Counted from the stretch's first letter, positions 13,025 through 55,363 are shown. The stretch is DNA of 64,000 nucleotides from Actinomycetota bacterium (GCA_035288045.1 DATEBA010000012.1:15979-79978); one strand, 5' to 3'. Notes: generated by a model from the sequence alone, not told the origin. Translations and numbers: made by a program.

Positions 13025-14098
13025 TTGGCGATGCGGGCAGAGGTCGCGAAGGAAGCAGTCACCCGCGTCGTCTTGGGTGCTCTTGTAGCCGCGTCGCTAC
13101 TCACAGGCACCCAGGCGTCGGCGGGCCTGCGCTGCGCGGGCAAGGCGGCCACGATCGTCGGGACGCGCCATTCGGACTCGATCGCGGGAACACCCGGGCC
13201 CGACGTCATCGTGGGACGCGCCGGGCACGACGTGATCATCGGCCTCGGGAGCCGCGACCGGATCTGCGGTGGACGAGGGGGCGACAGGATCCGGGCCGGA
13301 AGGGGTCCCGATCGCGTCTTCGGAGAACGGGGGAACGACCGGATCCGCGGCGCCGAGGGAGAGGACCTGGTCGAGGGCGCGGCGGGTCGCGACCGCGTGG
13401 TCGGAGGCTCCGACGCCGACACGATCTCGGGCGCCGAGGGCGCCGACCGGCTGCTCGGCGGCTCGGACGCGGACCGCCTCTTCGGCGGCCGGGGGGAGGA
13501 TCTTCTCGTCGGTGGTCCCGGGAAGGACTCCTTGAGCGGCGGCGGGAACGCCGACCGGTTCGGGGGCGGACCGGGCTCGGATCTCCTCGGGGACGAGCGG
13601 AGCGAGCAGGGCGACGATGTCGGCTTCGGCGGCAAGGGCCGGGACGTCATCGCACTCGGTGAGGGCGACGATGTGCTGAAAGGAGGGCTCGGCCGGGATC
13701 AGGCGTCGTACTACGTCGCTGCGGCCGGGATCCGAGCGAACCTCGACCGCGAGGTTGCGCGCGGCGAGGGTTCGGACCGGCTCGTCGGGATCGAGGACGT
13801 CATCGCGTCCCGCTTCGGGCACGACGACGTGCTCATCGGCGACGAGGGACCGAACGCCCTATCGGGCGGAGACCTGGCCGCTGCCGGCGCCGACGTGATC
13901 GGCGGTAGAGAGGGACGAGACGACCTTGCCGGGGGGTTCGGGGGCGACACGATCCGCGGGGGCGCGAACGGCGACCGGCTCTTCGGGGGAGGAGGCGACG
14001 ACCTCCTGAACGGCGGTCAGGGCGCCGATCGGCTCAGGGGAGGCCTGGGTGTCGACGAGTGCGTGCGGGGCGAGCTCATCATCGGGTGCGAGGTCTAG
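13025..14098 (+). CDS. Secreted protein with hemolysin-type (RTX-like) calcium-binding nonapeptide repeats; paralog family member 1
   Basis: Signal peptide, then many G-x-D-x-[IL]-x-G-G repeats and a C-terminal Cys pair (ECVRGELIIGCEV). Paralogous to 44743..45780 and 58012..58587. Confidence 0.7.
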   Translation: MAMRAEVAKEAVTRVVLGALVAASLLTGTQASAGLRCAGKAATIVGTRHSDSIAGTPGPDVIVGRAGHDVIIGLGSRDRICGGRGGDRIRAGRGPDRVFGERGNDRIRGAEGEDLVEGAAGRDRVVGGSDADTISGAEGADRLLGGSDADRLFGGRGEDLLVGGPGKDSLSGGGNADRFGGGPGSDLLGDERSEQGDDVGFGGKGRDVIALGEGDDVLKGGLGRDQASYYVAAAGIRANLDREVARGEGSDRLVGIEDVIASRFGHDDVLIGDEGPNALSGGDLAAAGADVIGGREGRDDLAGGFGGDTIRGGANGDRLFGGGGDDLLNGGQGADRLRGGLGVDECVRGELIIGCEV

Positions 14099-14579: not shown

Positions 14580-15035
14580 ATGCCGCAATCCATGAGGACC
14601 AAGCTCGCTTCCACCCTGCTCGTCGCCCTGCTAGCTCTGGGCACGGCCGCCTGCGACAAGGCCAAGAGCCAGCCAGACAGCGACGGCACGATCACCACGC
14701 CCCCGGAGGAATCGGTCGGCCCGATCGGGACGACGAAGGACGAGTTCCGCTACCAGAACGCCGGCCTAGTAGCGGTCCTCAAGTTCCGGGGGAAGGGCGG
14801 GACGCTCCAGGTCGAGAACGACTCCGGGTTCGACCTCCCGACGCCCGGCTTCTACGTCCTTGACGCGCGTGACGGCCACGAGATCGAGGGGACGGTAGAG
14901 GGATCCGAGCCCGTTCCCGACGGGGAGAAGAAGACCTTCCAGATCTCGGTCGGCGAGGGCTTCGAGCTCGAGAACGTCGGTCTCGTGATCTTGCTCATGG
15001 GCGAGGACAACTACGGCGCCTTCGTGAACGTCTAG
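14580..15035 (+). CDS. Putative secreted lipoprotein, function unknown
   Basis: Signal peptide ending LALGTAAC (lipobox-like Cys). Confidence 0.5.
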   Translation: MPQSMRTKLASTLLVALLALGTAACDKAKSQPDSDGTITTPPEESVGPIGTTKDEFRYQNAGLVAVLKFRGKGGTLQVENDSGFDLPTPGFYVLDARDGHEIEGTVEGSEPVPDGEKKTFQISVGEGFELENVGLVILLMGEDNYGAFVNV

Positions 15036-15102: not shown

Positions 15103-16284
15103 ATGGTGCCTCGACCAGCGCTACGGAGCGCCCTCGCGGTTGTGCTGGCCACGTCTCTCGCCCTCACGACCGCACCCGGGGCGGCCGCCCACGACAACCG
15201 CTTCCGCGACGGGAACGACACGCCCGGAGCGCTGGATCTCGCCCAGGCTGCGGTCGGGCACGACCGTGGAGTCGTCCACACCTTCACGACGCACGAGAGA
15301 TGGCCCGCGAAGCTCCTGAAGGAGGACGGTTTCTTCGTGCTCGGCATAGACCTGAACGGCGACAGGGACTATGAGCTGAACGCGTTCGTCTTCTACTTCC
15401 GAGGGGGCATCAGGGGGATCCTGGTCAGGGGGCGTCGGCTCGTGGCGAAGCTTCCCGCATCCAAGACAAGCTCCAGATCCGCGAAGGTCGAGATCCCGGA
15501 GCGCTACCTGCTCCCCGGCTACTGGTGGGCCGCGTTCAGCATCTACGCGCCCGATGAAGGGAAATGCGAGAAAGGATGCATCGACGCGCTACCGAACAGA
15601 TTCCCGCTGATCGCCCACGACCTCGAAGCGCCGACGATCAAACTCGAGTCGTTCCCCCGGATCTCGACGACGGCCTCGAACACCACGAGCTTCCCGGTGT
15701 CCTTCAGGGTCAACGACGACGGGCCCGGCAAGCTCATGTGGAGCCTCGACCGGCGCGCCTACGGAACGCAGTCCTGGTCCTCGATCGAGACCGGTAGGTC
15801 CGAGGGCGACAAGATCATCAGGGTGGACGGGCGTGAGGGCGCCACTTACGAGTTCCGGGTGCGAGCGACGGACGGCCAAAACTCGAGGGTGAGCCCAACG
15901 CGCGTGGTCATCGTTCCCTACGACGATCGGAACAAGCTCCTCACATACGACGGCCCCGGAGGAGAGTCGGACTGGTCCTCCGACGCGGTCAGCGGCTACT
16001 TCCAGGGAACGCGGCACGAGTCCTCGATCGCAGGCGCGACGATTGAGTTCACGTTCACCGGTAGGTACCTCGCCATCTACGGGGGGCCGACCGCCGGTGG
16101 AACCGGACGGATCCTGGTCGACGGGGAACAGGTCGACACTTTCTCCGAGGACTCCTCGACGAACAAGGGTCAGAAGATCGCCGAGCGGGGTTGGGGGGCG
16201 GCCCGTGAGCGCACCATCACCATCGAGGTGACCTCCGGGACGATACTCATAGACGCGATCGTAGCGACTCCCGCTTCGCTTTGA
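15103..16284 (+). CDS. Secreted hypothetical protein (possible Ig/fn3-like middle domain)
   Basis: Clear signal peptide (ATSLALTTAPGAAAH). No catalytic motif recognised. Confidence 0.5.
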   Translation: MVPRPALRSALAVVLATSLALTTAPGAAAHDNRFRDGNDTPGALDLAQAAVGHDRGVVHTFTTHERWPAKLLKEDGFFVLGIDLNGDRDYELNAFVFYFRGGIRGILVRGRRLVAKLPASKTSSRSAKVEIPERYLLPGYWWAAFSIYAPDEGKCEKGCIDALPNRFPLIAHDLEAPTIKLESFPRISTTASNTTSFPVSFRVNDDGPGKLMWSLDRRAYGTQSWSSIETGRSEGDKIIRVDGREGATYEFRVRATDGQNSRVSPTRVVIVPYDDRNKLLTYDGPGGESDWSSDAVSGYFQGTRHESSIAGATIEFTFTGRYLAIYGGPTAGGTGRILVDGEQVDTFSEDSSTNKGQKIAERGWGAARERTITIEVTSGTILIDAIVATPASL

Positions 16285-44369: not shown

Positions 44370-44441
44370 GGGCGGTTAGCTCAGGGGGAGAGCGCTTCCT
44401 TGACGCGGAAGAGGCCAGAGGTTCAAATCCTCTACCGCCCA
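44370..44441 (+). tRNA. tRNA-Val (anticodon GAC)
   Basis: Acceptor GGGCGGT/ACCGCCC and anticodon stem-loop CTTCC-TTGACGC-GGAAG. The Gly-Cys-Val order is typical of actinobacteria. Confidence 0.85.
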
Positions 44442-46194
44442 CGATCTGAAACCCCTGGTAGAGGCTAGGTTGCCGAGGTCATCAAGAGACGTCCTCCTGG
44501 ATCAAGAGGACGCACTAGCGGAGGCGGGGTTCAGGTACGTGGGTCTCCAGCCAGTTCTTGGCGTAAGGGTGGTCTCTCTTGTGAAGCCTCTCCGCGTGGA
44601 AGAAGATCCGGATGCCTTCTGGTCACGACGTCCTCAAGCTTGCGACTACTGCGCCCCTGCGGTACGTGAAGGCGTAGAGCAGCGGCACATGCAACTCAAT
44701 CGAGCAGGATGCCCTCGGCAATCCAAGGGTAGGATCCTCGGCATGCGGATCCGAAGAGCGCTAGCTGTGAGCTCCACAGCATCGATCCTCTTGTTGATGC
44801 TTGCTCCTGTTTCCAGCGTGAGTGGAACGGTTGCTCAGTGTTTCGGGGAACCGGCGACAATCGTCGGCACCCCTGAAGCTGACCGCATCCGAGGGACCGA
44901 TCACGCAGACGTGATCGTCGGTCTTGGGGGTCGGGACGTGATCGTCGGGCGGAAGGGGCTTGACCTCATCTGTGGGAACGATGGACCGGACCGATTGGAT
45001 GCCGGGCGGGCCGGCGACAAGCTCTCGGGAGGCCTCGGCAGCGACGACATCTACGACGGGCGAGGCGACGACATTTCACTCGCGGGCCCAGGGCGGGATC
45101 AGCTGACGAGCATCGTGCAGGCGAGCCCCTGCGACGTGTTTTGCCGCACCTACGACCGATGGAACGACCGGGTGGCCGGTGGCCCGGGGACGGACCGCCT
45201 CTTCATAGATGGGGGCTACGCCAACCTCTCGACGGGTGTCTATGTCACAGATGCCTCCAACGATCGCATCGCGGGCATTGAAGACGTCAGTGGTGGGTTT
45301 CTGAACGAGACGATCATCGGAAACGCTCGTGACAACATGCTGGACGCATACCTTGGCGAGGAAGACATCGTTCGGGGACGAGCGGGTGATGACATCATCG
45401 GCATCTCGGGCAGCGATTTCGAGCAGTCCGAGAACGGCCGCATGTACGGTGGCCCGGGAGACGACTGGCTCGACTTTGAGCATGACGCTCAGGTTGATCT
45501 ACGTGAAGGAACCGCGAGTTCCTCCGGGGGAGAACTTGTGCTTGCGGGTTTTGAGAACGTGCGAGCCAGCGCCAACTCCCTCCTCGCTGGCGACTCGGGA
45601 CCGAACACGCTCATTGGCGAGTTCGGTGTGGACACGCTGATCGGGCGAGCTGGGCGAGATGTCTTGATCAGTCACCTCCGGGATGACTCTCTTGATGGTG
45701 GAAGAGGAACCGATCGCCTTAATGGAGGCAAAGGGACGGATTCGTGTCACCACGGCGAAGTGGTCTCAAATTGTGAGTGAGAGGCCAGGAGGCAGGCCGG
45801 GCTAGCAGCTCTGGAGGCAGCTCGACACCCTGAAGGACGAGATGGAGGAGGGCGACCAGTTCGGGTCGTCCCTCGCCTAGCGCCTCGGGAGCAGGAGGGG
45901 CCGCCAGGCTCCGTTCGCGCCTGGACTTCGTCGCGAGGTCACGGGATCCGGGGAGGGTGCACCGAGCTGGTTTCGCCGTCCGAGCGCTGGGCGCTTTCCG
46001 GCCCCGATTCTTCCCTCCGGTAAGGGGCGGGCAGACGGCCGGTGCCGTACGCCTCGGACACCTGGGAACAGACAGAGCGGTCAACTCCTGGTCAAGGAGC
46101 CGACCGAATCTGACGGTACTCGACGTCACTGGTGTGACGATCGAGACGGGCGTTGAGCAGCAGCGGTGCTGGTCAAGGCATTGCCCTTGACTCT
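44442..46194 (+). mobile_element. Putative degraded integrated islet C at tRNA-Val(GAC), bounded by the first tRNA 3'-half repeat
   Basis: It lies between the intact tRNA 3' end and direct repeat 46195..46237, has a lower-GC leader (44442..44742) and carries a single secreted RTX-like cargo gene. No integrase is present. Confidence 0.45.
44743..45780 (+). CDS. Secreted RTX-like calcium-binding repeat protein; paralog family member 2
   Basis: ATG 44743 with RBS. Signal peptide, CFGEPATIVGT block, G-x-D-x-[IL]-x-G repeats and a C-terminal Cys pair. Colinear with 13025..14098. Confidence 0.7.
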   Translation: MRIRRALAVSSTASILLLMLAPVSSVSGTVAQCFGEPATIVGTPEADRIRGTDHADVIVGLGGRDVIVGRKGLDLICGNDGPDRLDAGRAGDKLSGGLGSDDIYDGRGDDISLAGPGRDQLTSIVQASPCDVFCRTYDRWNDRVAGGPGTDRLFIDGGYANLSTGVYVTDASNDRIAGIEDVSGGFLNETIIGNARDNMLDAYLGEEDIVRGRAGDDIIGISGSDFEQSENGRMYGGPGDDWLDFEHDAQVDLREGTASSSGGELVLAGFENVRASANSLLAGDSGPNTLIGEFGVDTLIGRAGRDVLISHLRDDSLDGGRGTDRLNGGKGTDSCHHGEVVSNCE

Positions 46195-46237
46195 TTGACG
46201 CGGAAGAGGCCAGAGGTTCAAATCCTTTACCGCCCAC
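46087..46237 (+). repeat. att-like repeat 1 of tRNA-Val(GAC): ~105-bp element arm plus 43-bp copy of the tRNA 3' half (46195..46237)
   Basis: TTGACGCGGAAGAGGCCAGAGGTTCAAATCCTTTACCGCCCAC matches the tRNA from the anticodon loop to the 3' end with 1 mismatch. The preceding arm is about 75% identical to the 47821..47930 arm. Confidence 0.8.
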
Positions 46238-47930
46238 CAAGGCCGACGGCGCAATCCCGGATCGCTCAGGACGCCAGATACCGGGCCAGGGCGAACCTCC
46301 GGCCACTACCCTCTTCGCGCGATCCTGCCGCGACGATCCTGCCGTCGGCCTGGATGGCGAGAGCGAAAGCCGTGGCGAACCCACCTCCGAACCTGGTGGT
46401 TACCTTCCCGTCCGACCCAAACGTGTCATCGAGGATCCCGTCAGTCGCGTACCGAGCTAGGGCGAACCGGCCCTCCGTATCGTTCGAAACTTCACCCGAC
46501 GCCACGATCCTGCCGTCGGTCTGGATGGACACCGCGTGAAGGCCGGCATCGCCTGTGGCAAAACGGGTCAGGACTTCGCCGTCCCCTCCAAATGTCTCGT
46601 CGAGGCTGCCATTCCTCCTGTGGCGGAAGAGGGCGAAACCCGCTCCTCCACTCGACCCCCCCACAACGACCTTGCCGTTGGGCTGGATTGCGAGTGCGGA
46701 AGCGCCGCCGTCGGGGTTCAGGACCTTCCCGTCACCCCCGAAGGTGGCATCCAGCGTCCCATCGACGTTGTACCGAGCAAGGGCAAGAGCCGAGCCCGGA
46801 AAGGTGAAGAGGCCCCCCGCCACGACGATCCTGCCGTCAGACTGGACAGCCAAGGCGTCCGCTAGGGCCTCCCCGCGAAATCTCGTCCTCACCTTCCCGT
46901 CGCCCCCGAACGTAGCGTCCCGCGTGCCATCGGTGTTGTACCGGGCGAGGGCGAATCCGGCTCCCTCGAGGGCGAAGGAGACTCCGGCGGCCACGATCCT
47001 GCCGTCGGATTGGATGGATACCGCCGAGGCGGAGGCACCGCCGGCGGCGAGTCTGGTCCGAACTCGTCCGTCACCGCCGAACGTGGCGTCGAGGGTACCG
47101 TTGGTCTTGTACCGGGCGAGGGCGAAGCCGCCCGAGAATTCACCCGCTGCAACGATCTTGCCGTCGGTCTGGATGGCGACTGCGGAAGCGGTGCCGCCGG
47201 GGGTCAGGACCTTCCCGTCGCCCCCGAAGGTGGCATCCAGCGTGCCGTCGGTGTTGTACCGGGCCAGAGCGAATGCCTCGCCTACACGCGATCCCTCGGC
47301 TCGACCCGCCGCAACGATCTTGCCGTCGGCTTGGATGGCGACCCCTGAGGCTAGTGCGGAGACTGTCCGCCGAGGCCAGGTCAAGACCTTCCCATTGCCT
47401 CCGAAGCTCGTATCGAGGTCGCCCGCCGCTGCTGCCGCCGAGGGAGCATTGATCGACAACATGAAGATGAGCGTCGCACTTGCCGCGAGGATCCGAGCCT
47501 GCATCGTGTCAATCTCTCTCTCGAAGTTGCGTCATTAGACCTTCGCCTTCGACACCGGGTCAAGGGTCGGTCCGAGCTGGAGCTCGCGGGAAACTTTGCG
47601 GGAGTGGGAGTAGGAGCCCGCTTCGCCTCTCGCGAACTGGTGGCCGAGTGAATCCGGTGGCTACCGTGGCGAGCTCCACATCAGCCAAGCGATCTACCGT
47701 CGTCCGGTGCCACGGCTGCCTCTGCGAGCCGCTGTCTTCTTCGGCCGCCCCTGCGGTTGATCATTGCGGACCGGCCTGGCCTTGAGGGTGGCCAGTTTCC
47801 TGCTCTTGATTCTGGTCAACCTCTGGTCAAGGAGCCGACGGAATCAGACGGTACTCATCAGTACTCGTGTGGCGAGCGAGAATGCCCGCGAGCAGCAGAA
47901 GTCCTGGTCATGACGCTGTGCGGCACCTCC
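46238..47930 (+). mobile_element. Putative degraded integrated islet D (second tandem unit at tRNA-Val(GAC))
   Basis: Bounded by repeats 1 and 2; single cargo gene (delta-60 repeat protein). Confidence 0.45.
46266..47504 (-). CDS. Secreted delta-60-repeat protein (GxLDxxFGGDGKV...QxDGKIV repeats)
   Basis: Signal peptide followed by about eight ~50-aa repeats with the consensus G-T-L-D-A-T-F-G-G-D-G-K-V ... A-x-Q-x-D-G-K/R-I-V-A-A-G ... ALARY. Confidence 0.7.
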   Translation of the reverse strand: MQARILAASATLIFMLSINAPSAAAAAGDLDTSFGGNGKVLTWPRRTVSALASGVAIQADGKIVAAGRAEGSRVGEAFALARYNTDGTLDATFGGDGKVLTPGGTASAVAIQTDGKIVAAGEFSGGFALARYKTNGTLDATFGGDGRVRTRLAAGGASASAVSIQSDGRIVAAGVSFALEGAGFALARYNTDGTRDATFGGDGKVRTRFRGEALADALAVQSDGRIVVAGGLFTFPGSALALARYNVDGTLDATFGGDGKVLNPDGGASALAIQPNGKVVVGGSSGGAGFALFRHRRNGSLDETFGGDGEVLTRFATGDAGLHAVSIQTDGRIVASGEVSNDTEGRFALARYATDGILDDTFGSDGKVTTRFGGGFATAFALAIQADGRIVAAGSREEGSGRRFALARYLAS

Positions 47931-47973
47931 TTGACGCGGAAGAGGTCGAAGGTTCAAATCCTTCACCGCCCAC
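47821..47973 (+). repeat. att-like repeat 2 of tRNA-Val(GAC): arm plus diverged copy of the tRNA 3' half (47931..47973)
   Basis: TTGACGCGGAAGAGGTCGAAGGTTCAAATCCTTCACCGCCCAC has 5 mismatches to the tRNA. The arm TCTGGTCAAGGAGCCGACGGAATCAGACGGTACTC... parallels 46087... Confidence 0.7.
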
Positions 47974-48460
47974 CAGCGAAGTCCCGCCGGTGTGAGTTGA
48001 CGACTCATCGACGCCGTCACCGGATGGACGCTCTTCGAGCAGCGGGAGACTGACTCCGTAGAACCAAGTGTCGCACTTCCTCCTGTCAGTGAGGGAGACA
48101 GTTGCCCAACATGGCGGGCCGATTTCGGACCGCGAATTTGATCCCCGCAGCCCTCGCTCCGGCCCTTCGGCCTCAAACTCACCCACGGCACCGCCCGCTC
48201 ACCCCCACCCGTAGGGAGTCGGTCGGAGTCCTCGCCCCGAGCGCCGTCCTGGGGTTACCTCCCAAGAGAAGTGTTTGCCCAGGTAGATGGCGTCTGGGGC
48301 AACCCCGACCAATGCTCCCCAGACCCTGCCGCCGGACCTAACCCCCCGGAGAGGAAATCCGTCATTAGGCGGATGCATCGTTAGTCCGTTTGCACTAGGA
48401 TTCAGGCACCACCCGGCGTAGCCGGGGTGGAGGAGCGTGACCTGCCTGAGGAGGGGGTCG

Positions 48461-48985
48461 ATGAGGAGAGCCACGGTGTCGCTGGCGGCCATAGTCGTGG
48501 TGGCGATGTTCGCGACGCCCGCGTTCGCCAACGCGGGGGAGCAGTGCCCGGACGGTACGGACAAGTTCGAGGTGAACGGCGACGCAACCGGTGGGTCGTG
48601 GGAGTGGGGCGGCGACGGCATCTCCGTCGACGTGAGCGGCGCCTCTGCGACGATCACCTTGGACGCCGGTGTCGTCATCGACAGCGTCTGCTGGAAGTCC
48701 GGGATCAACGAGGGCCCGCTGGGGTACGCGACGGGTCCATGGGTCGGTCCCACGACGTTCACGATCCAGACGAACAGCGGTCAGTATCTTTCGAACATCC
48801 ACTTCTACCGCGGCGAGTACCCGCCCGATGGGTACGGCCCCAACGCTGCCACCAGCACGAGCGCGCCGAAGGATCAGAGCGCGGTTCGGCTGACGTGGGG
48901 GATCGTCCTGGCGGTTGTGGCTACGTGGGCGCTCACGCGGACTCTGGTTCGCCGGAGACTCGAGACGCGCAAGGTCGAGGAGTGA
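48461..48985 (+). CDS. Surface protein with signal peptide and C-terminal sorting-signal-like tail (R-L-T-W-G + TM + RRRL)
   Basis: ATG 48461 with GAGGAGGGGG RBS. Signal peptide ...ATPAFANAG, a Ser/Thr/Pro-rich linker, SAVRLTWG, a ~17-residue hydrophobic segment and a basic RRRLETRK tail. Confidence 0.6.
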   Translation: MRRATVSLAAIVVVAMFATPAFANAGEQCPDGTDKFEVNGDATGGSWEWGGDGISVDVSGASATITLDAGVVIDSVCWKSGINEGPLGYATGPWVGPTTFTIQTNSGQYLSNIHFYRGEYPPDGYGPNAATSTSAPKDQSAVRLTWGIVLAVVATWALTRTLVRRRLETRKVEE

Positions 48986-49077
48986 TCGGATAGCTATTCG
49001 TTCTTGAGCTGCGCATCCCCCCCCGAGTTCCTGACTGGCTCCGGGTGGGGAGCCGGCTCCTGGGAGAGGGGGGATCG

Positions 49078-49689
49078 ATGAGGCGACTGTCGGTAGCGCT
49101 GTTGGCGGTGCTTGTCGTTGGGCTGGTGGCCGGGCCGGCCGCCGCCGGGAACAAGGGGACGGTGAAGATAGAGGAGGTTCCTATCGACCTCCTGCCGGAT
49201 AACTCGCCGCATCCGGGATGCGATTTCCTGATCGAGTTCTTCCATTATCCGGAGGGCTCCGAGGTTAGTTGGGTGTTCACCGTGCACCCGCCGACCTCGG
49301 ACACCAACGGACCGGGCTCGGTCGTCGGAAGCGACAGCGCGACCCTGGATCCGGAGGACGCCAACAACCACCACCTCAACCTCTCCAGGGTCCAGAACAT
49401 CGAGGCTGGGTTGATCGCGTCCGGCGTTGAGGCGCACCCGCAGCAGGGGTTCCACGTGAAGCTCTCCGTGACCGGGCCCGAGGGCCCGAAGTACAAGGTG
49501 TTCTGGGTCGAGTGCGCAGGCTACCCGCCGCGTGCGGCCCCCGACACGAGCGGCACGAGCGCCGTCACTCCGACGGATGACTCGGCCGCGCGCATCACGT
49601 GGGGCATGCTGGGGGCGTTCCTCGCCGCTGGCGTCGTGCTCCGTTCGATCCTCCGGCGCCGCCTCGCGCTCCGGCGGACCGGCGGCTGA
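49078..49689 (+). CDS. Paralogous surface protein with the same C-terminal tail (A-R-I-T-W-G + TM + RRRL)
   Basis: ATG 49078 with RBS. Signal peptide, a PDTSGTSAVTPTDD linker, SAARITWG, a hydrophobic segment and RRRLALRR. Confidence 0.6.
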   Translation: MRRLSVALLAVLVVGLVAGPAAAGNKGTVKIEEVPIDLLPDNSPHPGCDFLIEFFHYPEGSEVSWVFTVHPPTSDTNGPGSVVGSDSATLDPEDANNHHLNLSRVQNIEAGLIASGVEAHPQQGFHVKLSVTGPEGPKYKVFWVECAGYPPRAAPDTSGTSAVTPTDDSAARITWGMLGAFLAAGVVLRSILRRRLALRRTGG

Positions 49690-49909: not shown

Positions 49910-49984
49910 GGGCGCGTAGCTCAGCGGGAGAGCGCTTGCTTCACACGCAAGAGGTCGCAGGTTCAAAACCTGCCGCGCCCACCA
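49910..49984 (+). tRNA. tRNA-Val (anticodon CAC), CCA encoded
   Basis: Acceptor GGGCGCG/CGCGCCC, anticodon arm CTTGC-TTCACAC-GCAAG and T-arm GCAGG-TTCAAAA-CCTGC. Confidence 0.85.
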
Positions 49985-49994
49985 GACAGGATCG

Positions 49995-50280
49995 GAGGCT
50001 CACAAGGGATTGGCGAAGAGCTCCCGGCCGTGGGTCCCATCGTTGGCGGCGAAGAAGAGGGTCCCAGCGACGTTCGCAAGGGACTTCGGGTGCGAGCCCC
50101 CAGATTCCGGGTAGATGTCGTTGACCTGGACTGTGCCGGCCTCGGTTCCGTCGCTCTTCCAAAGCTCGTAGCCGTCCGTGCCGTCGTCGGCAGCGAAGAA
50201 CAGGGTCCTCCCGACGTTGGTGAGGAACCTTGGGTACGACCTCGCCGATCCGGTTTCTGTCCCGTGTATTCCGGCGATTC
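49995..50280 (-). pseudogene. Remnant of an ELWxxDG-repeat protein gene (no start, truncated)
   Basis: The DNA is alignable, at roughly 75% identity, to the repeat-coding part of 51852..53045 (compare 50150..50230 with 52650..52740). No complete ORF. Confidence 0.5.
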
Positions 50281-50490
50281 ATGGAGCGTGCGCCCGAGTA
50301 CAGCTTCGAGCCCCACGCATACCTCGCGGACGACGAGCATGGAGTGGAGCTCCAGAAATCCCACTACAGGCGGGGCGACCAGACGCTGGACACAAACGAC
50401 ACGTTCGTCTGCCACTTCCGAGACGGCAAGGTCACAGAGACGTGGCTGTCGACAGACGATCCGTACGGCGTGGACGAATTCCTCGGCTAG
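50281..50490 (+). pseudogene. C-terminal fragment of a SnoaL/NTF2-like protein
   Basis: ...TFVCHFRDGKVTETWLSTDDPYGV resembles the C-terminal strands of SnoaL-like polyketide cyclase/NTF2 folds. Only about 70 codons, with no N-terminal half. Confidence 0.35.
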
Positions 50491-50511
50491 CCGCGGGACC
50501 ATCGAGTTGCT

Positions 50512-51843
50512 CTACTCTCCGCGGGCGCTGTGCTCGACGATCGACGCGAGATCGACCCTGGCCAGGTAGGAGTCGAAGCTACCGGCGTTCGACTCGCCCG
50601 CGAAGGTGCCCGAGGTGTCGCCGATCACGAACAGATCGCCGGCCGCGCCCCATCCCCAGCCCACCGTTTCCTCTTCGTCGGTTCCGAATTCGAGTGTCCA
50701 TTGAGCGTCGCCCGTCGTCGGCTCGAACGCCCGGGCGAAGACGTCGTCACCGCCGAGGTTCGTTTGGCCATGGAAGGCGCCACCTGTGGTCCCCACGGTC
50801 ACCACGTCGCCCCGCACCAGCGTCGCGCCCGCGGACGCATCGACGGCCCTCGTGCCGAACTGCCTGGTCCAAAGCCCGACGCCTGCCGGCGAGAATCCGC
50901 GGATGAAGGCGTCGGACCTACCCCTTCTCTCGAACCCGCGGAAGGATCCCCAGGTCTGGCCCGACACGTACACGCCGCTCGCATCGGCCGCCAGCCCCGA
51001 CCCGATGTCGGCCCTGTTGGTACCGAACTGGCGCAGCCACAATCTCCTCCCGTCTCGAGAGAACAGGGCGAGGAACGCGTCCAAGTCGCCGTGAGAGCGC
51101 GCCCCGGGAAGGTGACCGTCGGTGAAGCCGTTCACGTAGATGCCCTGTGGGGCGATCATCGCCGCCCACGCTTCCTCATACCCCCGCCCGCCGAACTGCC
51201 GCAGCCACTCCATCGCTCCCCGCTTGTCGAAGCGGGCGAGGAACAAGTCGGCGCTGCCATGGTTCACACGGTTCGCGAACGCGCCGAAGGTGTACCCGAA
51301 CACGAAGACGCCCGACCGGTCCACCACGATGCCCGCCGCGTAGTCGTCCTCGTCCGTTCCGAACTGCGCCATCCACCGCTCGTTCCCCTCGAGGTCGTAC
51401 CTCGCGACGAACGCATCGGCTCCCCCCGCGCTGGTCTGACCGGGTAACGAACCCGTCGTGGCACCGTCCACGTAGAGGCCAGACGCGTCCGCGCGCGCGG
51501 CGCCGACCTCCTCCCACCTCCTCGTGCCGAACTGCACGGTCCAGACCTCCGAGCCCCGCGCGTCGGTGCGCCTGATCCATCCGTCCGCGTCCCCCTCGCT
51601 GGCCTGCCCCGGGAGGGCGCCGTAGGTCAGACCCCCCGTGAAGACGTCCCCCCCGAAGGAGTCGACCGCGTAGGTGCCGAGCTCCGGAGCCGGAGAGCCG
51701 AACTGATCGACCCAGGCCACGGACCAGGTGATCGCCGCGCTCGGGGGCCCGAGGAGACCAACGAGAACCGCTAGCAACGCAGCGAGCGGGAACGCCGGGC
51801 CGCCCCAGCGACCGGGCGCTCCCGCGGCTCGAGACAGCGTCAT
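50512..51843 (-). CDS. Secreted beta-propeller repeat protein (SBBP-like repeats: W..QFGT...D.A.GV..D.SGVYV.G.T.G...G)
   Basis: Start at 51843 (MTLSRAAG... signal/TM), then about eight ~48-aa repeats. Confidence 0.65.
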   Translation of the reverse strand: MTLSRAAGAPGRWGGPAFPLAALLAVLVGLLGPPSAAITWSVAWVDQFGSPAPELGTYAVDSFGGDVFTGGLTYGALPGQASEGDADGWIRRTDARGSEVWTVQFGTRRWEEVGAARADASGLYVDGATTGSLPGQTSAGGADAFVARYDLEGNERWMAQFGTDEDDYAAGIVVDRSGVFVFGYTFGAFANRVNHGSADLFLARFDKRGAMEWLRQFGGRGYEEAWAAMIAPQGIYVNGFTDGHLPGARSHGDLDAFLALFSRDGRRLWLRQFGTNRADIGSGLAADASGVYVSGQTWGSFRGFERRGRSDAFIRGFSPAGVGLWTRQFGTRAVDASAGATLVRGDVVTVGTTGGAFHGQTNLGGDDVFARAFEPTTGDAQWTLEFGTDEEETVGWGWGAAGDLFVIGDTSGTFAGESNAGSFDSYLARVDLASIVEHSARGE

Positions 51844-51851
51844 CGACCTGG

Positions 51852-53045
51852 TCACGGAATGGTCACGAAGTCGTCCAGGAACGACCGCGCGATCGCGATG
51901 TCGTTCCTCCACGCCCAGGATATGCCGTGGCACTGTCCGGTCTCACCGTCGCCTACGGCGACCGCGACGTTGGAGTTCCCGAGGAAGTAGGGCGCGCCCG
52001 CATCTCCGCTGCAGACGCCCCCCTGTCCGGTCGCGGTCGAGTTGATCTGCAGCTCGATGGTGCCCGGGTCGATCGCCGCGATCTGGGCCGTCGCCCACCG
52101 CCGCGCTCCGTCGAACCAGTAATCGCACGGCCCAGAGCCCGAGCAGTCGGCCTCGACGCCGTAGCCGACCACCGTGAGCGACTGGCTCTTCTTCACCGAC
52201 TCCAGCTGGTCGAGCGTAGGCAGCCGGGCCGGAGTGATGCCTCGAACGGGCCTGGCGAGGATCGCAACCCCGTAGAGGTTGAAGCCGTTGGTGAAGTTCA
52301 CCTCCGGGTGCAAGTACCCGGCCTCGACGGTTCGGAGGGTCGACGTCTCTGGATCGAGCACCGGGTCGAACGAGACCACCGCCCGACCGCCGATCGACTG
52401 GGCGTATTCCACGCCGCCCGGGCACTCCGGAACCGTGAGGAACGCGGTCGAGGAGATCAACACACCCGAACAGAAGGCGAAGACCTCACCGTCCGGATCC
52501 TCCAGCACCATCACCCCGACGTTCGGGTCGCTCTTCCACAACTCGCGGCCAGTGATGCCGTCGTCTGTGGCGCGGAAGAACAGGGTCCCTCCAACGTTGA
52601 TGAGCGTGCCCGGGTACGAGCCCCCCAATCCTGGGACGATGTCCTTCACTTGCACTGTCCCGGCCTCGGTCCCGTCGCTCTTCCACAGCTCGGGGCCGCT
52701 GATGCCGTCGTTGGCGCGCAAGAACAGGGTTCCCCCGACGCTGGTGAGGAGCCTTGGGCGGAACCACGGACCCGACATGGCCGATCGGGGGTTGATGTCC
52801 TTCACCAGGGCCGTACCGGTTTCTGTCCCGTCGCTCTTCCACAGCTCGGGGCCGCTGACGCCGTCGTTGGCGCGCAAGAACAGGGTCCCTCCGACGTTGG
52901 TGAGGCTGCCGAGGTGCGAGGTCGTCGATCCGGGGTTGATGTCGCGGACCAGGTAAGGACTCCCGGCGGCGCTTGCAGAGGGCGCGGCAGGAAGCGATGC
53001 CACGAGACAGACGAGGATCAGCGCCGCCTTTCGTACGGTTCGCAT
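51852..53045 (-). CDS. Secreted protein: three ELWKSDGT-type repeats + trypsin-like (S1) domain with all three catalytic residues substituted
   Basis: Start at 53045 (MRTVRKAALILVCLVASLPAAPSASA) with AGGAG RBS. Repeats GTLFLRANDG(V/I)SGPELWKSDGTE x3. The S1 fold landmarks CSGVLIS...LTVPEC (His->Glu), GVAILARP (Asp->Gly) and CSGDAGAP (Ser->Ala) are all altered. Confidence 0.6.
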   Translation of the reverse strand: MRTVRKAALILVCLVASLPAAPSASAAGSPYLVRDINPGSTTSHLGSLTNVGGTLFLRANDGVSGPELWKSDGTETGTALVKDINPRSAMSGPWFRPRLLTSVGGTLFLRANDGISGPELWKSDGTEAGTVQVKDIVPGLGGSYPGTLINVGGTLFFRATDDGITGRELWKSDPNVGVMVLEDPDGEVFAFCSGVLISSTAFLTVPECPGGVEYAQSIGGRAVVSFDPVLDPETSTLRTVEAGYLHPEVNFTNGFNLYGVAILARPVRGITPARLPTLDQLESVKKSQSLTVVGYGVEADCSGSGPCDYWFDGARRWATAQIAAIDPGTIELQINSTATGQGGVCSGDAGAPYFLGNSNVAVAVGDGETGQCHGISWAWRNDIAIARSFLDDFVTIP

Positions 53046-53184
53046 CGCTCGGCTCCTCGTTGGCCACCGGCAGGGGGAAGATTTCGACAAGCGAGACTCT
53101 ACTGATGTCGGAGGAAGCAGCGCAAGGCTCTGGCTGATTCGCCGATAGATACCTTGGGTTCGCGTCCTCTGTCCCCCCTGACGC

Positions 53185-53238
53185 GATAACCTTCTCGATT
53201 CGCTCGCCTCTGACGTGCATAATGTCCAAGGCGCACAG
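53185..53238 (+). repeat. Left part of the att arm of the tRNA-Val(CAC) islets, interrupted by IS30
   Basis: GATAACCTTCTCGATTCGCTCGCCTCTGACGTGCATAATGTCCAAGGCGCACAG parallels 58794..58846; the last 24 bp are identical. Confidence 0.75.
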
Positions 53239-54693
53239 ACCAGGTTCAACGGGTCCTCGCAACACCGGCTGGCTGGACTGAGAGTAGGTGATCGTTCAAA
53301 GCTTCGGCGGGCGTGCGCCAGTCGAGAGTCTTGCGCGGCCGAGTGTTCAGCGCCAGGGCGACGGCTTCGAGATCATCGGCGTTGTGTTTGCTCAGGTCGG
53401 TTCCTTTGGGGAAGTACTGGCGCAGCAGTCCGTTGGTGTTCTCGTTCGTGCCGCGCTGCCAGGGGCTGTGCGGGTCACAGAAATAAACCGCGAGACCGGA
53501 GCCGATCCGCAGTTCGGCGTGTTTGGCCATCTCCTTGCCTCGGTCCCAGGTGAGGGAGCGCCGAAGCTGTGCGGGGAGTGTCGTGATCGTGGACGCGATA
53601 GCGTCGCGGACGGCCTCGGCCCCGTACCCGGCGAGCGCCGGCCCGTTCTTGACTCGTGGCTCGGTGCCGTAGCCCTCCAGGCGGGGTAGGTGCAGCAACA
53701 TTGTGAACCGGGTGGTTCGCTCGACCAGCGTCCCGATCGCGGATCGGTTCAGCCCGATGATCAGGTCCCCTTCCCAGTGCCCGGGCACCGCACGATCCGC
53801 GACCTCGGCTGGGCGGGCGCTGATCATGACTTCGGGTGTGATGAAGCCGTCGCGGCGCTGTCGGGAACGAGCTCGAGGCACGCGCAGTGCTCGACCGGTG
53901 CGCAGACACGAGACCAGCTCCCGGCGCAGCGCCCCGCGGCCCTGCACGTAGAGCGCCTGGTAGATCGCCTCGTGTGAGATCCGCATGGACCCATCATGAG
54001 GGTGCTCGACACGCAGCCGGTTCGAGATCTGCTCCGGGCTCCAGGACTTGGCCCAGCGCCGGTCTTGGCGGCGACCGTGCCGACGACCGATCCAGCGCAC
54101 CTCGGGTCCGGGCACGAGCTCACCGTCGGGTCGGGTTATCGAACCGGCGAGGCGGTCCTGCACGTACTCGCGCAGCTGCTCGTTCGCGGCGAGCTTGGAG
54201 ACCTTCGGGCGGCTGGCTCGCCGCTCTGCGTGCCACTGCGCCGTCGACGCCCGGTACTCCAAGCGGTACGTGCGAGTCGAGGCGTTGCGGCGGAGCTCCC
54301 GCGAGATCGTTGACGGCGACCGACCCAACCGTCGGGCGATCGCGCGCACCCCGACGAGCTGGGCGTGCAGGAGCGCGATCTCCTCGCGTTCAGCAAAGGA
54401 CAGGTAGCGACCAGACAAGTGGACTCAGCGAGATGGGTGGCATCCCGCCAGCGTGACGGAACCACCTCGCCCCGACCGCCAGCGACACGCCGGCCTCGCC
54501 GGCGGCGTCCTCACTGGATGCGCCACGCGCTATCGCCTCCCAGAACGGCACTCGGTCTTCGCGCCGAGCCGTCGAAGGCCGCCCCGGGGACCACATCTGA
54601 CCGCGCATCGCACGGATCGCCTGCTGACGCTCGCGAACACCCATCGCGCACCACCTCCGTCTCGAGGTGTTGCGACGACCACTTGATTCCGCC
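53239..54693 (-). mobile_element. IS30-family insertion sequence, apparently intact (1455 bp)
   Basis: 28-bp imperfect terminal inverted repeats (ACCAGGTTCAACGGGTCCTCGCAACACC vs reverse complement of the right end; 19/28 matches, the inner 10 identical). Flanked by a 3-bp CAG direct repeat (53236-38 and 54694-96). The uninterrupted target sequence is visible at 58823..58860. Confidence 0.75.
53246..54418 (-). CDS. IS30-family DDE transposase
   Basis: N-terminal HTH (LSFAEREEIALLHAQLVGVRAIARRLGRSPSTISRELRRN) and a DDE domain (HWEGDLI, DRGKE, NENTNGLLRQYFPKGTDL), 390 aa. Confidence 0.9.
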   Translation of the reverse strand: MSGRYLSFAEREEIALLHAQLVGVRAIARRLGRSPSTISRELRRNASTRTYRLEYRASTAQWHAERRASRPKVSKLAANEQLREYVQDRLAGSITRPDGELVPGPEVRWIGRRHGRRQDRRWAKSWSPEQISNRLRVEHPHDGSMRISHEAIYQALYVQGRGALRRELVSCLRTGRALRVPRARSRQRRDGFITPEVMISARPAEVADRAVPGHWEGDLIIGLNRSAIGTLVERTTRFTMLLHLPRLEGYGTEPRVKNGPALAGYGAEAVRDAIASTITTLPAQLRRSLTWDRGKEMAKHAELRIGSGLAVYFCDPHSPWQRGTNENTNGLLRQYFPKGTDLSKHNADDLEAVALALNTRPRKTLDWRTPAEALNDHLLSVQPAGVARTR

Positions 54694-54757
54694 CAGCGCA
54701 TAGACCCGGGTGCTTCACACGCAAGAGGTCGCAGGTTCAAAACCTGCCGCGCCCACA
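54694..54757 (+). repeat. Right part of att arm plus direct repeat 1 of the tRNA-Val(CAC) 3' half (54712..54757)
   Basis: CGCATAGACCCGGGT + GCTTCACACGCAAGAGGTCGCAGGTTCAAAACCTGCCGCGCCCACA is identical to tRNA positions 49938..49981. Confidence 0.85.
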
Positions 54758-54773
54758 AGGGTCGCGAACGAGC

Positions 54774-55363
54774 ATGTCAGAGGGTGTGTGTAGCCTCTTC
54801 GGGTCGGCGCGGTGCGCGAGCACAGCGTCGGTTGAGCGGCTGATCGAGTTCCTGGAGTCGGGCGGGATGCCCACGGCGATCGAGAACGTCAAACGCGAGC
54901 ACCTCGAGAGCTCATCGAGCACTTGGTCGAGACGAGGGCGCCGGCGACGGCCTCGAACAGGTTCCGAGCCGTGAAGGGGTTCTTCGCGTGGGCCACGCGC
55001 GACGAGGAGGTGATCGCCGAGTTGCCGATGCGGAACATGGCTTCCCCGCGGGTCCCCGAGTCGCCGCCGGACCTGGTCAGCGAGGACGAGGTGCGCGCGC
55101 TGCTCGCGACCTGCCGCGGCAACGCGTTCGACTCTCGGCGCGACGAGGCGATCATCCGGCTCCTCTACGACACCGGCGCCCGGCGAAGCGAGGTCGCGAA
55201 CCTGCGCCTCGACGACGTCGACGCAGCCCTCCCGCAAGGCGCGAGGGCCAAACGGAGGCTCGCCGGATGGCTCGGACCGAGAAGCTCTCGCCGGAGCAGC
55301 GATCCCTACGCGCGCGTCTCGCTGCGCACGCGCTTCACTCCTCGCGGGACTCTCGCGAGCTAA
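54774..55363 (+). pseudogene. Tyrosine recombinase (phage-integrase family) pseudogene
   Basis: The N-terminal SAM-like/core-binding region and catalytic box I (RDEAIIRLLYDTGARRSEVANLRLDDVD) are present. A 20-bp tandem duplication (54897..54936, GAGCACCTCGAGAGCTCATC|GAGCAC...) shifts the frame. The downstream box II/Tyr region is absent. Confidence 0.65.

What the first reader, a model, noticed from the sequence alone, without database searches (positions are those of the whole stretch)
48461..49689. Paired surface proteins sharing a candidate novel C-terminal sorting signal ([AV]R[LI]TWG - TM - RRRL)
Two adjacent paralogs have a signal peptide, a divergent middle region and a Ser/Thr/Pro-rich linker. 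Both end with an almost identical tripartite tail: the conserved motif SAVRLTWG / SAARITWG, a ~17-residue hydrophobic helix and a basic tail (RRRLETRK / RRRLALRR). This is the architecture of sortase (LPXTG) and exosortase (PEP-CTERM) substrates, but the motif is none of the named CTERM classes I know. No sortase, exosortase or rhombosortase gene is in the window.
Basis: partly seen in the sequence, partly recalled or inferred. Interest (0 to 1): 0.7.

Follow-up and report, generated by a model that had tools for sequence, protein, structure and literature searches.

The report
Shared membrane-anchor tail on two surface proteins
Two neighbouring secreted proteins of an uncultured actinobacterium share a conserved C-terminal tail that looks like a sorting signal, but it occurs only on this gene pair in a few close relatives and has no sorting enzyme nearby, so it is more likely a specialised membrane anchor than a new sorting system.

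Summary
Genes A (48461-48985) and B (49078-49689) each encode a signal peptide, a small beta-rich ectodomain, a disordered S/T/P/A-rich linker and a near-identical tail: [LIV]-T-[WFV]-G, 16 hydrophobic residues, then RRR. They are not clear paralogs; similarity covers only about the last 70 residues.

The tail is conserved by selection, not recent gene conversion (51-54% nucleotide identity between the A and B tails). It is found in the A-B pair of three related genomes and on one more distant B homolog.

No named sorting-domain model matches it. A tail profile searched against 1.84 billion proteins recovered only these two families. Motif scans of 185,579 species genomes and of JGI metagenomes found no additional carrier. 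No sortase, rhomboid or exosortase lies within roughly 90 kb.

B belongs to a widespread actinobacterial Ig-like family with interchangeable C-termini: none, LPXTG-like, or a "PTxVxAG" tail that always has a class-F-like sortase gene directly downstream. The window's tail is a fourth form, without a sortase.

Best reading (0.5): an uncleaved type I membrane anchor whose outer helix end (TxGxxxA) mediates a specific contact. A true sorting or processing signal remains possible (about 0.25). Interest is modest.

The parts
48461..48985 (+). Gene A: 174-aa secreted protein (signal peptide, small all-beta two-Cys ectodomain, linker, tail). It is lineage-restricted: 4 homolog clusters in 5.8 billion proteins.
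   Evidence: ORF and translation. 100% match to VJN50_01720 and only 3 other homologs. GGAGG ribosome-binding site upstream of the ATG. AF2 gives an all-beta model of low confidence, pLDDT 58.
48461..48529 (+). A signal peptide: MRRATVSLAAIVVVAMFATPAFA, with predicted cleavage after AFA.
   Evidence: Read directly from the sequence. AF2 helix at residues 5-17. The cleavage site is inferred.
48818..48886 (+). A linker (residues 120-142): YPPDGYGPNAATSTSAPKDQSAV.
   Evidence: pLDDT below 50 for residues 119-143. Aligns with the B linker.
48887..48901 (+). A juxtamembrane motif RLTWG (residues 143-147).
   Evidence: T and G are invariant in all 8 tails.
48902..48949 (+). A hydrophobic segment IVLAVVATWALTRTLV (16 residues, with an embedded Arg at +13).
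   Evidence: AF2 helix at residues 140-173.
48950..48982 (+). A basic cytoplasmic end: RRRLETRKVEE.
49078..49689 (+). Gene B: 203-aa secreted protein with an Ig-like beta-sandwich ectodomain. It belongs to a widespread actinobacterial family that has no Pfam or NCBIfam model.
49078..49146 (+). B signal peptide: MRRLSVALLAVLVVGLVAGPAAA.
   Evidence: Sequence. AF2 helix at residues 4-16. The cleavage site is inferred.
49522..49590 (+). B linker (residues 149-171): YPPRAAPDTSGTSAVTPTDDSAA.
   Evidence: pLDDT 47-56 over residues 150-180.
49591..49605 (+). B juxtamembrane motif RITWG (residues 172-176).
49606..49653 (+). B hydrophobic segment MLGAFLAAGVVLRSIL (16 residues, with an embedded Arg at +13).
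   Evidence: AF2 helix at residues 181-200.
49654..49686 (+). B basic cytoplasmic end: RRRLALRRTGG. The 'ALxRR' element is conserved in B orthologs, including L043.
49910..49984 (+). tRNA-Val(CAC), which closes the conserved block tRNA-Val(GAC) - A - B - tRNA-Val(CAC).
   Evidence: The same order occurs in L001 and L003.

Best explanation
A and B are two probably co-transcribed cell-surface proteins. Each is exported by a cleavable signal peptide and retained by an uncleaved C-terminal transmembrane helix (type I topology). The ectodomain and flexible linker lie outside the cell. The helix is roughly ITWG + 16 residues. RRR and the following residues act as a cytoplasmic stop-transfer, positive-inside element. 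The conserved outer end of the helix (T-aromatic-G-x-x-x-A, often followed by x-x-A) and the residues just outside it form a specific contact surface, not a cleavage site. The most likely contact is between the A and B anchors themselves, or with one common membrane partner. That would explain why both tails are conserved in sequence and change together. Shown: the architecture, the conservation, the restriction to this gene pair, and the absence of a linked enzyme. Inferred: the topology, the lack of cleavage, and the helix-helix contact.
For: (1) The tail occurs only on A, B and their orthologs: the profile search of 1.84e9 proteins returned only these two families; the genome motif scan gave zero hits; the metagenome scan found only the known pair plus antisense chance hits; and there was no other carrier in about 1 Mb of actinobacterial loci. 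Leave-one-family-out HMMs score the other family at 33-46 bits, so a third family as close as A is to B should have been near or above the detection threshold. (2) The pair is adjacent, on the same strand, and syntenic between two tRNA-Val genes in three genomes. (3) The specific sequence of the helix and cytoplasmic end is conserved, not just its hydrophobicity. The B linker and tail are 91% identical between the window and L003, while the ectodomain is 64% identical. T(-2), G(0) and A(+4) are invariant, and the spacing to RRR is fixed at 16 residues. (4) The A and B tails co-vary within genomes: '[DEQ]SA[AV]R[LIV]TWG' in the window, L003 and P0021, against 'TSA.GGL.IT[WV]G' plus a 'YPPRDL' linker in L001. 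A-versus-B nucleotide identity is only 51-54%, with fewer than half of the identical residues using the same codon. (5) No sortase, rhomboid, exosortase or CAAX protease lies in the window or in the extra 10 kb on each side, nor next to the L043 homolog. Relatives with a true sortase-type tail always have the sortase gene directly downstream. (6) AF2 models the tail as one continuous helix running through RRRLALRR.
Against: No experiment or whole-proteome scan was possible, so cleavage is not excluded. Conservation along the helix shows no significant one-face periodicity (moment 0.09, permutation p = 0.63). The clearest co-varying positions (-7 to -4) lie outside the membrane, which would suit recognition by an enzyme equally well. 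The L043 B homolog carries the tail with no A gene within 10 kb, so an obligate A-B heterodimer is not required. The geometry of motif, helix and RRR, and the fact that B's relatives are sortase substrates, keep the sorting-signal reading open.
Confidence: 0.5

Rival explanations
1. The tail is a genuine, previously unnamed C-terminal sorting or processing signal (hTΩG-CTERM). An enzyme encoded elsewhere in the genome recognises [LIV]T[WFV]G at the outer membrane face. It could be a divergent sortase, a rhomboid-type intramembrane protease, or an unknown transpeptidase. It would cleave the tail and either release the ectodomains or attach them to the envelope.
For: The tail is tripartite with fixed spacing at the extreme C-terminus of two proteins with unrelated ectodomains. 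T and G are invariant across 8 tails from 4-5 organisms. Juxtamembrane residues co-vary in A and B within each genome, as expected for co-evolution with one enzyme. The B family is a recurrent sortase substrate elsewhere: LPXTG-like tails in 19 loci and a sortase-F-coupled tail in 25 loci. With cleavage after the invariant Gly, P4 = L/I/V, P1 = G and P2' = hydrophobic, which fits the rhomboid recognition rule (PMC2941825).
Against: Only two carrier families were found in huge databases. Known systems with an unlinked enzyme have many substrates per genome, and known few-substrate systems have the enzyme adjacent, which is not the case here. There is no hit to any NCBIfam sorting model. The HMM of the sortase-F-coupled tails scores these tails no better than LPXTG control tails. 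Trp at P2 is reported as deleterious for rhomboid cleavage in the TatA scan, and that motif has low information content. Sequence conservation of the helix and the post-RRR residues is unusual for a segment that is discarded.
Confidence: 0.25
2. The tail is a plain membrane anchor with no special motif function. It could be a relic of an ancestral sortase-type signal of the B family that lost its sortase and was copied onto A by an old recombination event. In that case the shared motif reflects common descent only.
For: B-family C-termini are highly interchangeable: none, LPXTG-like, sortase-F type, and other TM tails. MAFFT places B's 'DDSAARITWG' opposite 'DDSAPVSWW.AG' of the sortase-linked relatives. 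Similarity between A and B extends through the linker and the last beta-hairpin, which looks like a transferred module. Tail and ectodomain have different histories in B.
Against: T, G and A are invariant and the spacing is fixed despite about 50% nucleotide divergence and many synonymous differences, which indicates purifying selection on the motif. Both genes switched tail type in parallel in L001 without recent gene conversion. The tail is the most conserved part of B between the window and L003.
Confidence: 0.2
3. The similarity is a chance resemblance or an ORF-calling artefact.
For: TM segments followed by basic residues are compositionally similar in general.
Against: BLASTP E = 3e-06 and hhalign probability 93%. 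Third-position GC content is 0.85-0.88, typical of real genes here. Orthologs exist in independent assemblies. TWG-type tails score 52-84 bits against their HMM, while every other real C-terminus scores 9 bits or less.
Confidence: 0.03

Closest known systems
Sortase sorting signals (LPXTG / LAXTG; TIGR01167, NF041528 and related NCBIfam models)
   Same: A signal peptide at the N-terminus. At the extreme C-terminus: a short motif, a hydrophobic helix and a basic cluster, preceded by a flexible S/T/P-rich stalk. Other members of the B family carry bona fide LPXTG-like tails.
   Different: There is no L-P/A-x-T-G. In T-[WFV]-G the T and G are separated by an aromatic residue. No HMM hit. No sortase in about 90 kb. 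The helix and cytoplasmic end are sequence-conserved.
Sortase-F-coupled '[VI]PTx[VI][DNP]AG ... TM ... RRRG.H / RRRFLHDS' tails of B-family relatives (Kribbella, Nocardioidaceae, Propionibacteriaceae); nearest named model NF058571 GVDTG_CTERM, sub-threshold
   Same: Same ectodomain family as B. Same overall layout of linker, motif, TM and RRR. A loose alignment of 'DDSA..W.G'.
   Different: These tails always have a class-F-like sortase gene 47-420 nt downstream (one at 1447 nt). The window tail has none. Their HMM scores the window-type tails at 0-9 bits, the same as LPXTG controls. NF058571 gives no hit on the window tails, and 19.7 bits (cutoff 29) on the L001 A-ortholog tail alone (P0022; 14.9 bits on the whole protein).
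Exosortase, archaeosortase and rhombosortase signals (PEP-CTERM, PGF-CTERM, GlyGly-CTERM, IPTLxxWG-CTERM, MYXO-CTERM)
   Same: The motif sits directly at the start of the TM helix, with a tight fixed distance to an Arg cluster. IPTLxxWG-CTERM also ends in WG before the helix; this comparison is from my own recollection and was not tested against that model specifically.
   Different: No model hit at E <= 10 on the window tails. Those systems have many substrates per genome and a recognisable enzyme, and they are not typical of Actinomycetota (own knowledge). Only two carrier families were found here.
Rhomboid protease substrates (recognition motif P4 large hydrophobic / P1 small / P2' hydrophobic; Strisovsky et al. 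2009, PMC2941825)
   Same: Type I topology, with the motif at the outer end of the TM. [LIV]-T-Ω-G followed by x-hydrophobic fits P4, P1 and P2' if cleavage occurs after the Gly. The helix contains Gly residues.
   Different: Trp at P2 is reported as deleterious. The rule is low in information: 64 of 169 type I/III proteins matched in P. stuartii. No rhomboid gene was seen nearby.
Uncleaved type I C-terminal TM anchors with small-xxx-small (GxxxG/GxxxA, glycophorin-A-like) association motifs (own knowledge)
   Same: Invariant G(0)xxxA(+4), A at +7 in 5 of 6 non-redundant tails, a neighbouring Thr, a positive-inside RRR, and conserved helix sequence.
   Different: Association was not tested. 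The periodicity of conservation is not significant. Part of the conserved and co-varying stretch lies outside the membrane.

Membership tests
Sortase (LPXTG/LAXTG) cell-wall sorting signal | An LPXTG-type pentapeptide (L-P/A-x-T-G) just before the C-terminal helix, recognised by TIGR01167 or related models | tested here: not met
   The motif is R-[LIV]-T-W-G. No NCBIfam sorting-domain hit at E <= 10 on full proteins or on isolated tails.
Sortase (LPXTG/LAXTG) cell-wall sorting signal | A sortase gene present (adjacent for dedicated systems, anywhere for housekeeping sortases) | tested here: inconclusive
   None in the 64-kb window or in the extra 10 kb on each side.
Sortase-F-coupled tail of B-family relatives / NF058571 GVDTG_CTERM | The '[VI]PTx[VI][DNP]AG' motif upstream of a spacer, TM and RRRG.H; score above the model cutoff | tested here: not met
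   A custom HMM of 25 such tails scores the window A and B tails at 5.3 and 0.4 bits, within the range of LPXTG controls. NF058571 gives no hit on the window tails.
Sortase-F-coupled tail of B-family relatives / NF058571 GVDTG_CTERM | A class-F-like sortase gene directly downstream on the same strand | tested here: not met
   25 of 25 loci with that tail have one. Downstream of B the window, L001 and L003 have tRNA-Val, and L043 has polA.
PEP-CTERM / GlyGly-CTERM / other exosortase or rhombosortase domains | The signature motif (PEP, GG, PGF, and so on) and a model hit | tested here: not met
   No hit on the window tails. Only the L001 A tail gives weak sub-cutoff generic hits (GPS-CTERM 17.9 bits, PEP_CTERM 12.9 bits) that cover only the TM and RRR.
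Generic C-terminal protein-sorting domain (tripartite signal on multiple unrelated proteins, co-occurring with a dedicated enzyme) | Tripartite architecture (motif, TM, basic cluster) at the extreme C-terminus | tested here: met
Generic C-terminal protein-sorting domain (tripartite signal on multiple unrelated proteins, co-occurring with a dedicated enzyme) | The tail is found on several otherwise unrelated proteins per genome | tested here: inconclusive
   Two carriers with unrelated ectodomains. No third family in 1.84e9 representatives, genome and metagenome scans, or 1 Mb of loci. The proteome of the source MAG itself was not scannable.
Generic C-terminal protein-sorting domain (tripartite signal on multiple unrelated proteins, co-occurring with a dedicated enzyme) | Phylogenetic co-occurrence with one processing-enzyme family | not testable with these tools
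   Needs complete genomes of the 4-5 carrier organisms. None of them is a GTDB species representative in genome contigs except the L043 MAG, for which only 9.7 kb was fetched.
Rhomboid substrate | P4 large hydrophobic, P1 small and P2' hydrophobic near the outer end of a type I TM helix | tested here: inconclusive
   The rule fits if cleavage occurs after the invariant Gly (alignment against the rule). However, P2 = Trp is disfavoured, and the motif is common by chance.
Type I single-pass membrane protein (uncleaved C-terminal anchor) | An N-terminal signal peptide, one C-terminal hydrophobic helix of about 18-21 residues, and positive charges on the cytoplasmic side | tested here: met
   Sequence. 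AF2 helices. RRR cluster. Retention of the helix in the mature protein was not tested.

The most novel reading that the evidence does not exclude
The [LIV]T[WFV]G-TM-RRR tail is a new, lineage-specific protein-sorting or processing signal of an uncultured Actinomycetota clade. An enzyme that is not encoded nearby would read it, for example a divergent sortase or a rhomboid-type protease. It would have replaced the sortase-F-type signal that the same protein family uses in other actinobacteria.
Probability: 0.22. Interest if true: 0.6.

Novelty: new variant of a known kind. Interest (0 to 1): 0.3.

Why it matters
If the tail were a real sorting signal, it would add a new class to the sortase/exosortase-type repertoire in a poorly known actinobacterial lineage, and it would point to an unidentified processing enzyme. 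As it stands, it is a tidy example of a small surface-protein family swapping its mode of surface retention: free, LPXTG, dedicated class-F-like sortase, or conserved TM anchor. The more useful lead for specialists is the side finding. B-family genes are strictly paired with a class-F-like sortase and carry a non-LPXTG 'PTxVxAG' signal. This offers candidate natural substrates for class F sortases, whose roles are described as unknown in PMC13251363.

Tried and rejected
1. A tail-alignment query in the search for homologous proteins returned nothing at E <= 10, not even the self hits (153 word candidates). I treated this as uninformative.

A narrower alignment gave zero genome hits.

3. The metagenome hits L090 and L091 looked like new carriers. 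They are antisense, out-of-frame matches inside a glycosyltransferase gene and were rejected.

4. The NCBIfam hit of A's tail to the Rv1733c family (E = 0.012, 15.6 bits against a cutoff of 80) was judged a generic TM-end resemblance ('ALTR..L.R.R').

5. Recent gene conversion between the A and B tails was rejected: 51-54% nucleotide identity, and most identical residues use different codons.

6. Homology of the window tail to the sortase-F-coupled tail was rejected, because HMM scores equal those of LPXTG controls.

7. The helical-face conservation test for a dimerisation interface was not significant.

8. Fold searches for B gave only generic Ig-like matches, and the PDB sequence search gave nothing.

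9. The AF2 model of A was too poor (pLDDT 58) to use for a fold search. The afdb50 library was unavailable.

10. A possible link between the B family and iron uptake (L043 neighbours are DtxR-like and FTR1-like, judged by eye from the translations) rests on a single locus and was not pursued.

Full report
**What is there**

The stated interval holds two + strand genes. A runs 48461-48985 (174 aa) and B runs 49078-49689 (203 aa). Third-position GC content is 0.85-0.88, typical of real genes in this 68% GC DNA. A has a GGAGG ribosome-binding site upstream of its ATG. Both proteins are identical to hypothetical proteins VJN50_01720 and VJN50_01725 of a MAG labelled 'Actinomycetota bacterium'.

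Each protein has four parts:
- a Sec-type signal peptide;
- a small beta-rich ectodomain with two cysteines;
- a disordered S/T/P/A-rich linker;
- a tail made of R-[LI]-T-W-G, 16 mostly hydrophobic residues (with an Arg at +13) and RRR plus about 8 more residues.

These are the only two ORFs in the window with a C-terminal hydrophobic-plus-basic tail.

**Is the similarity real, and are they paralogs?**

BLASTP aligns only the linker and the start of the tail (15/35 identities, E = 3e-06). Profile-profile comparison aligns A 98-168 with B 128-202 at 93% probability, which covers the last beta-hairpin, the linker and the tail. Nothing else aligns. The shared element is therefore a C-terminal module of about 70 residues. 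The ectodomains are not detectably related, so 'paralogs' is not supported.

At the DNA level the two tails are only about 51% identical, and fewer than half of the identical residues use the same codon. The same holds for the A/B pairs in two other genomes. The motif is thus kept by selection on the protein, not by recent gene conversion.

**Relatives and conservation of the tail**

A has only three other homolog clusters among 5.8 billion proteins. The block tRNA-Val(GAC) - A - B - tRNA-Val(CAC) is conserved on two metagenome contigs, L001 and L003. A more distant B homolog in MAG SMAG_U13301 (L043) carries the same tail type: GRAVTFG-HLLAVLAGFLLVRTLV-RRTVALRRRG. It has no A gene nearby.

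Across eight tails (six non-redundant):
- T(-2), G(0) and A(+4) are invariant;
- A(+7) is present in 5 of 6;
- the distance from G to RRR is 16 residues (15 in one tail).

The generalised motif is [LIV]-T-[WFV]-G-x-x-x-A. Both A and B use '[DEQ]SA[AV]R[LIV]TWG' in the window, L003 and P0021. Both use 'TSA.GGL.IT[WV]G' with a 'YPPRDL' linker in L001, so the tails co-vary within genomes. B's linker and tail are 91% identical between the window and L003, although the ectodomain is only 64% identical. Against L001 the ectodomain is 76% identical and the tail 41%.

**How widespread is the tail?**

- No NCBIfam (release 20) or Pfam model hits the window tails, even at E <= 10 on isolated tails.
- A tail profile searched with full HMMER against 1.84 billion representatives found only the A and B clusters at E <= 0.001.
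- Leave-one-family-out HMMs score the other family at 33-46 bits. A third family as close as A is to B should therefore have been at or near that threshold, whereas more divergent tails (12 bits) would be missed.
- The pattern D[DQE]SA[VA]R[LIV]TWG is absent from 185,579 species genomes.
- The pattern SA[VA]R[LIV]TWG[MIV][LV] matched 13 stretches in JGI metagenomes. Three passed the tblastn check. One is the known L003 B gene. The other two are antisense chance matches inside a glycosyltransferase gene.
- In about 1 Mb of fetched actinobacterial loci, TWG tails score 52-84 bits and every other real C-terminus scores 9 bits or less.

**Genomic context**

The window is core chromosome: PNPase, RNase J, FtsK, RecA/RecX, RNase Y, MiaB/MiaA, DapF, HflX, LexA, NrdR, class II RNR and dUTPase. 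It contains no sortase, rhomboid, exosortase or CAAX protease. Extending 10 kb beyond each end shows the same picture. tblastn with two sortases found nothing.

**What B is**

AF2 gives a confident Ig-like beta-sandwich (pLDDT above 90 for about residues 30-150). It has only generic fold neighbours and no PDB sequence relative.

A scan of species genomes found 180 relatives, of which 80 loci were kept. Most are Actinomycetota (Kribbella, Nocardioides, Propionibacteriaceae, Acidimicrobiia), with a few Chloroflexota. Their C-termini fall into discrete types:
- no tail;
- LPXTG/LAXTG-like signals (19 loci, no adjacent sortase);
- a '[VI]PTx[VI][DNP]AG - spacer - TM - RRRG.H / RRRFLHDS' tail (25 loci);
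- another TM tail ('ETKLDGPLALALLGG...');
- the TWG tail (L043).

All 25 loci of the third type have a class-F-like sortase gene 47-420 nt downstream on the same strand (one at 1447 nt). So do the metagenome loci L004-L006. These sortases score 88-96 bits on NF033748, below the cutoff of 166. An HMM of those 25 tails scores the TWG tails no better than LPXTG control tails. None of these tails reaches the cutoff of the nearest named model, NF058571 GVDTG_CTERM. The window tail is therefore a distinct, sortase-unlinked C-terminal form of a family that is otherwise often sortase-anchored.

**Interpretation**

The data best fit an uncleaved type I membrane anchor shared by two probably co-expressed surface proteins. 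The evidence is:
- only these two carriers;
- conserved helix and cytoplasmic sequence;
- fixed geometry;
- within-genome co-variation without gene conversion;
- no linked enzyme.

The invariant T-x-G-x-x-x-A at the outer end of the helix resembles small-xxx-small helix-packing motifs (my own knowledge). This suggests A-B association, or association with a common partner. It remains an inference. A test for one-face periodicity of conservation was not significant (p = 0.63), and the clearest co-varying residues lie just outside the membrane.

A real sorting or processing signal remains possible. The architecture is right, and B's relatives are sortase substrates. The conserved positions would also fit the rhomboid P4/P1/P2' rule if cleavage followed the Gly (PMC2941825). 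However, Trp at P2 is disfavoured, and that rule is satisfied by many type I proteins by chance.

A third reading is a plain anchor inherited from a decayed sortase signal and copied onto A. This is less likely, given the selection seen on the motif.

**Verdict**

The sorting-signal interpretation is only partly supported and is closer to its own refutation criterion than to confirmation. Novelty: a new variant of a known kind (C-terminal surface-retention modules). Interest is modest (0.3). The decisive test is a whole-proteome scan of the source MAGs plus determination of the mature C-terminus.

Noticed in passing
Loci L004-L006, L020, L022, L025, L030, L034, L035, L041, L045, L046, L054, L055, L057, L058, L064, L065, L067-L069, L072, L073, L075, L079, L080, L082, L085 (B gene ends near 6400-7000; sortase follows directly): In Kribbella, Nocardioidaceae, Propionibacteriaceae and related MAGs, every B-family gene ending in '[VI]PTx[VI][DNP]AG - spacer - TM - RRRG.H / RRRFLHDS' is followed on the same strand by a ~200-aa class-F-like sortase gene (25 of 25 genome loci). 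No NCBIfam sorting-domain model reaches its cutoff on these tails. This looks like a dedicated sortase-substrate cassette with a non-LPXTG signal. Class F sortase roles are described as unknown in PMC13251363.
   Followed up: partly
window 44370-44442, 46192-46240, 47928-47976 (with 97-nt repeats at 46079-46175 and 47814-47910); 49910-49984 and 54711-54759: The 3' half of tRNA-Val(GAC) is repeated twice downstream. The 3' half of tRNA-Val(CAC) is repeated once, at 98% identity. These look like att-type scars of small islands integrated into both tRNA-Val genes: 44443-46240, 46241-47976 and 49985-54759. L003 lacks these insertions and has tRNA-Gly-Cys-Val directly followed by A and B. ARAGORN calls 46148-46239 an odd 'tRNA-???', and Rfam does not call it a tRNA.
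   Followed up: partly
window 49985-55363: The putative island after tRNA-Val(CAC) carries a SnoaL-like fragment (50230-50490), an SBBP beta-propeller protein (50512-51933, -), a trypsin-like protein with internal repeats (51852-53249, -), an IS30-type transposase (53246-54418, -) and, just beyond the repeated tRNA half, a truncated phage-type integrase (54923-55363). DNA at 50044-50234 is 62-77% similar to repeat units inside the trypsin-like gene (52568-52914), which suggests a gene fragment.
   Followed up: no
window 44470-45780 (+) and 46266-47504 (-): The two small islands after tRNA-Val(GAC) each encode one secreted repeat protein. One is an RTX/'GGxGxD'-like repeat protein, judged by eye from the translation. 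The other is a 412-aa DUF5122 (delta-60-type) beta-propeller protein with seven repeats. GC content is lower here (0.63-0.65).
   Followed up: no
window 13025-14098 (+): A 357-aa protein with eight HemolysinCabind (RTX nonapeptide) repeat matches sits in an otherwise housekeeping region.
   Followed up: no
L043 1151-3675: The only B homolog outside the A-B pair that carries the TWG-type tail lies next to a DtxR/IdeR-like repressor gene (2116-2931, -) and an FTR1-type iron-permease-like gene (1151-2026, -). Both were judged by eye from the translations. This hints at a metal-uptake context for the conserved His/Cys-rich B ectodomain, but it is a single locus.
   Followed up: no
window 14580-15035 (+) and 15103-16284 (+): Two ORFs with good coding statistics (151 aa and 393 aa) have no Pfam match at E <= 1e-4.
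   Followed up: no
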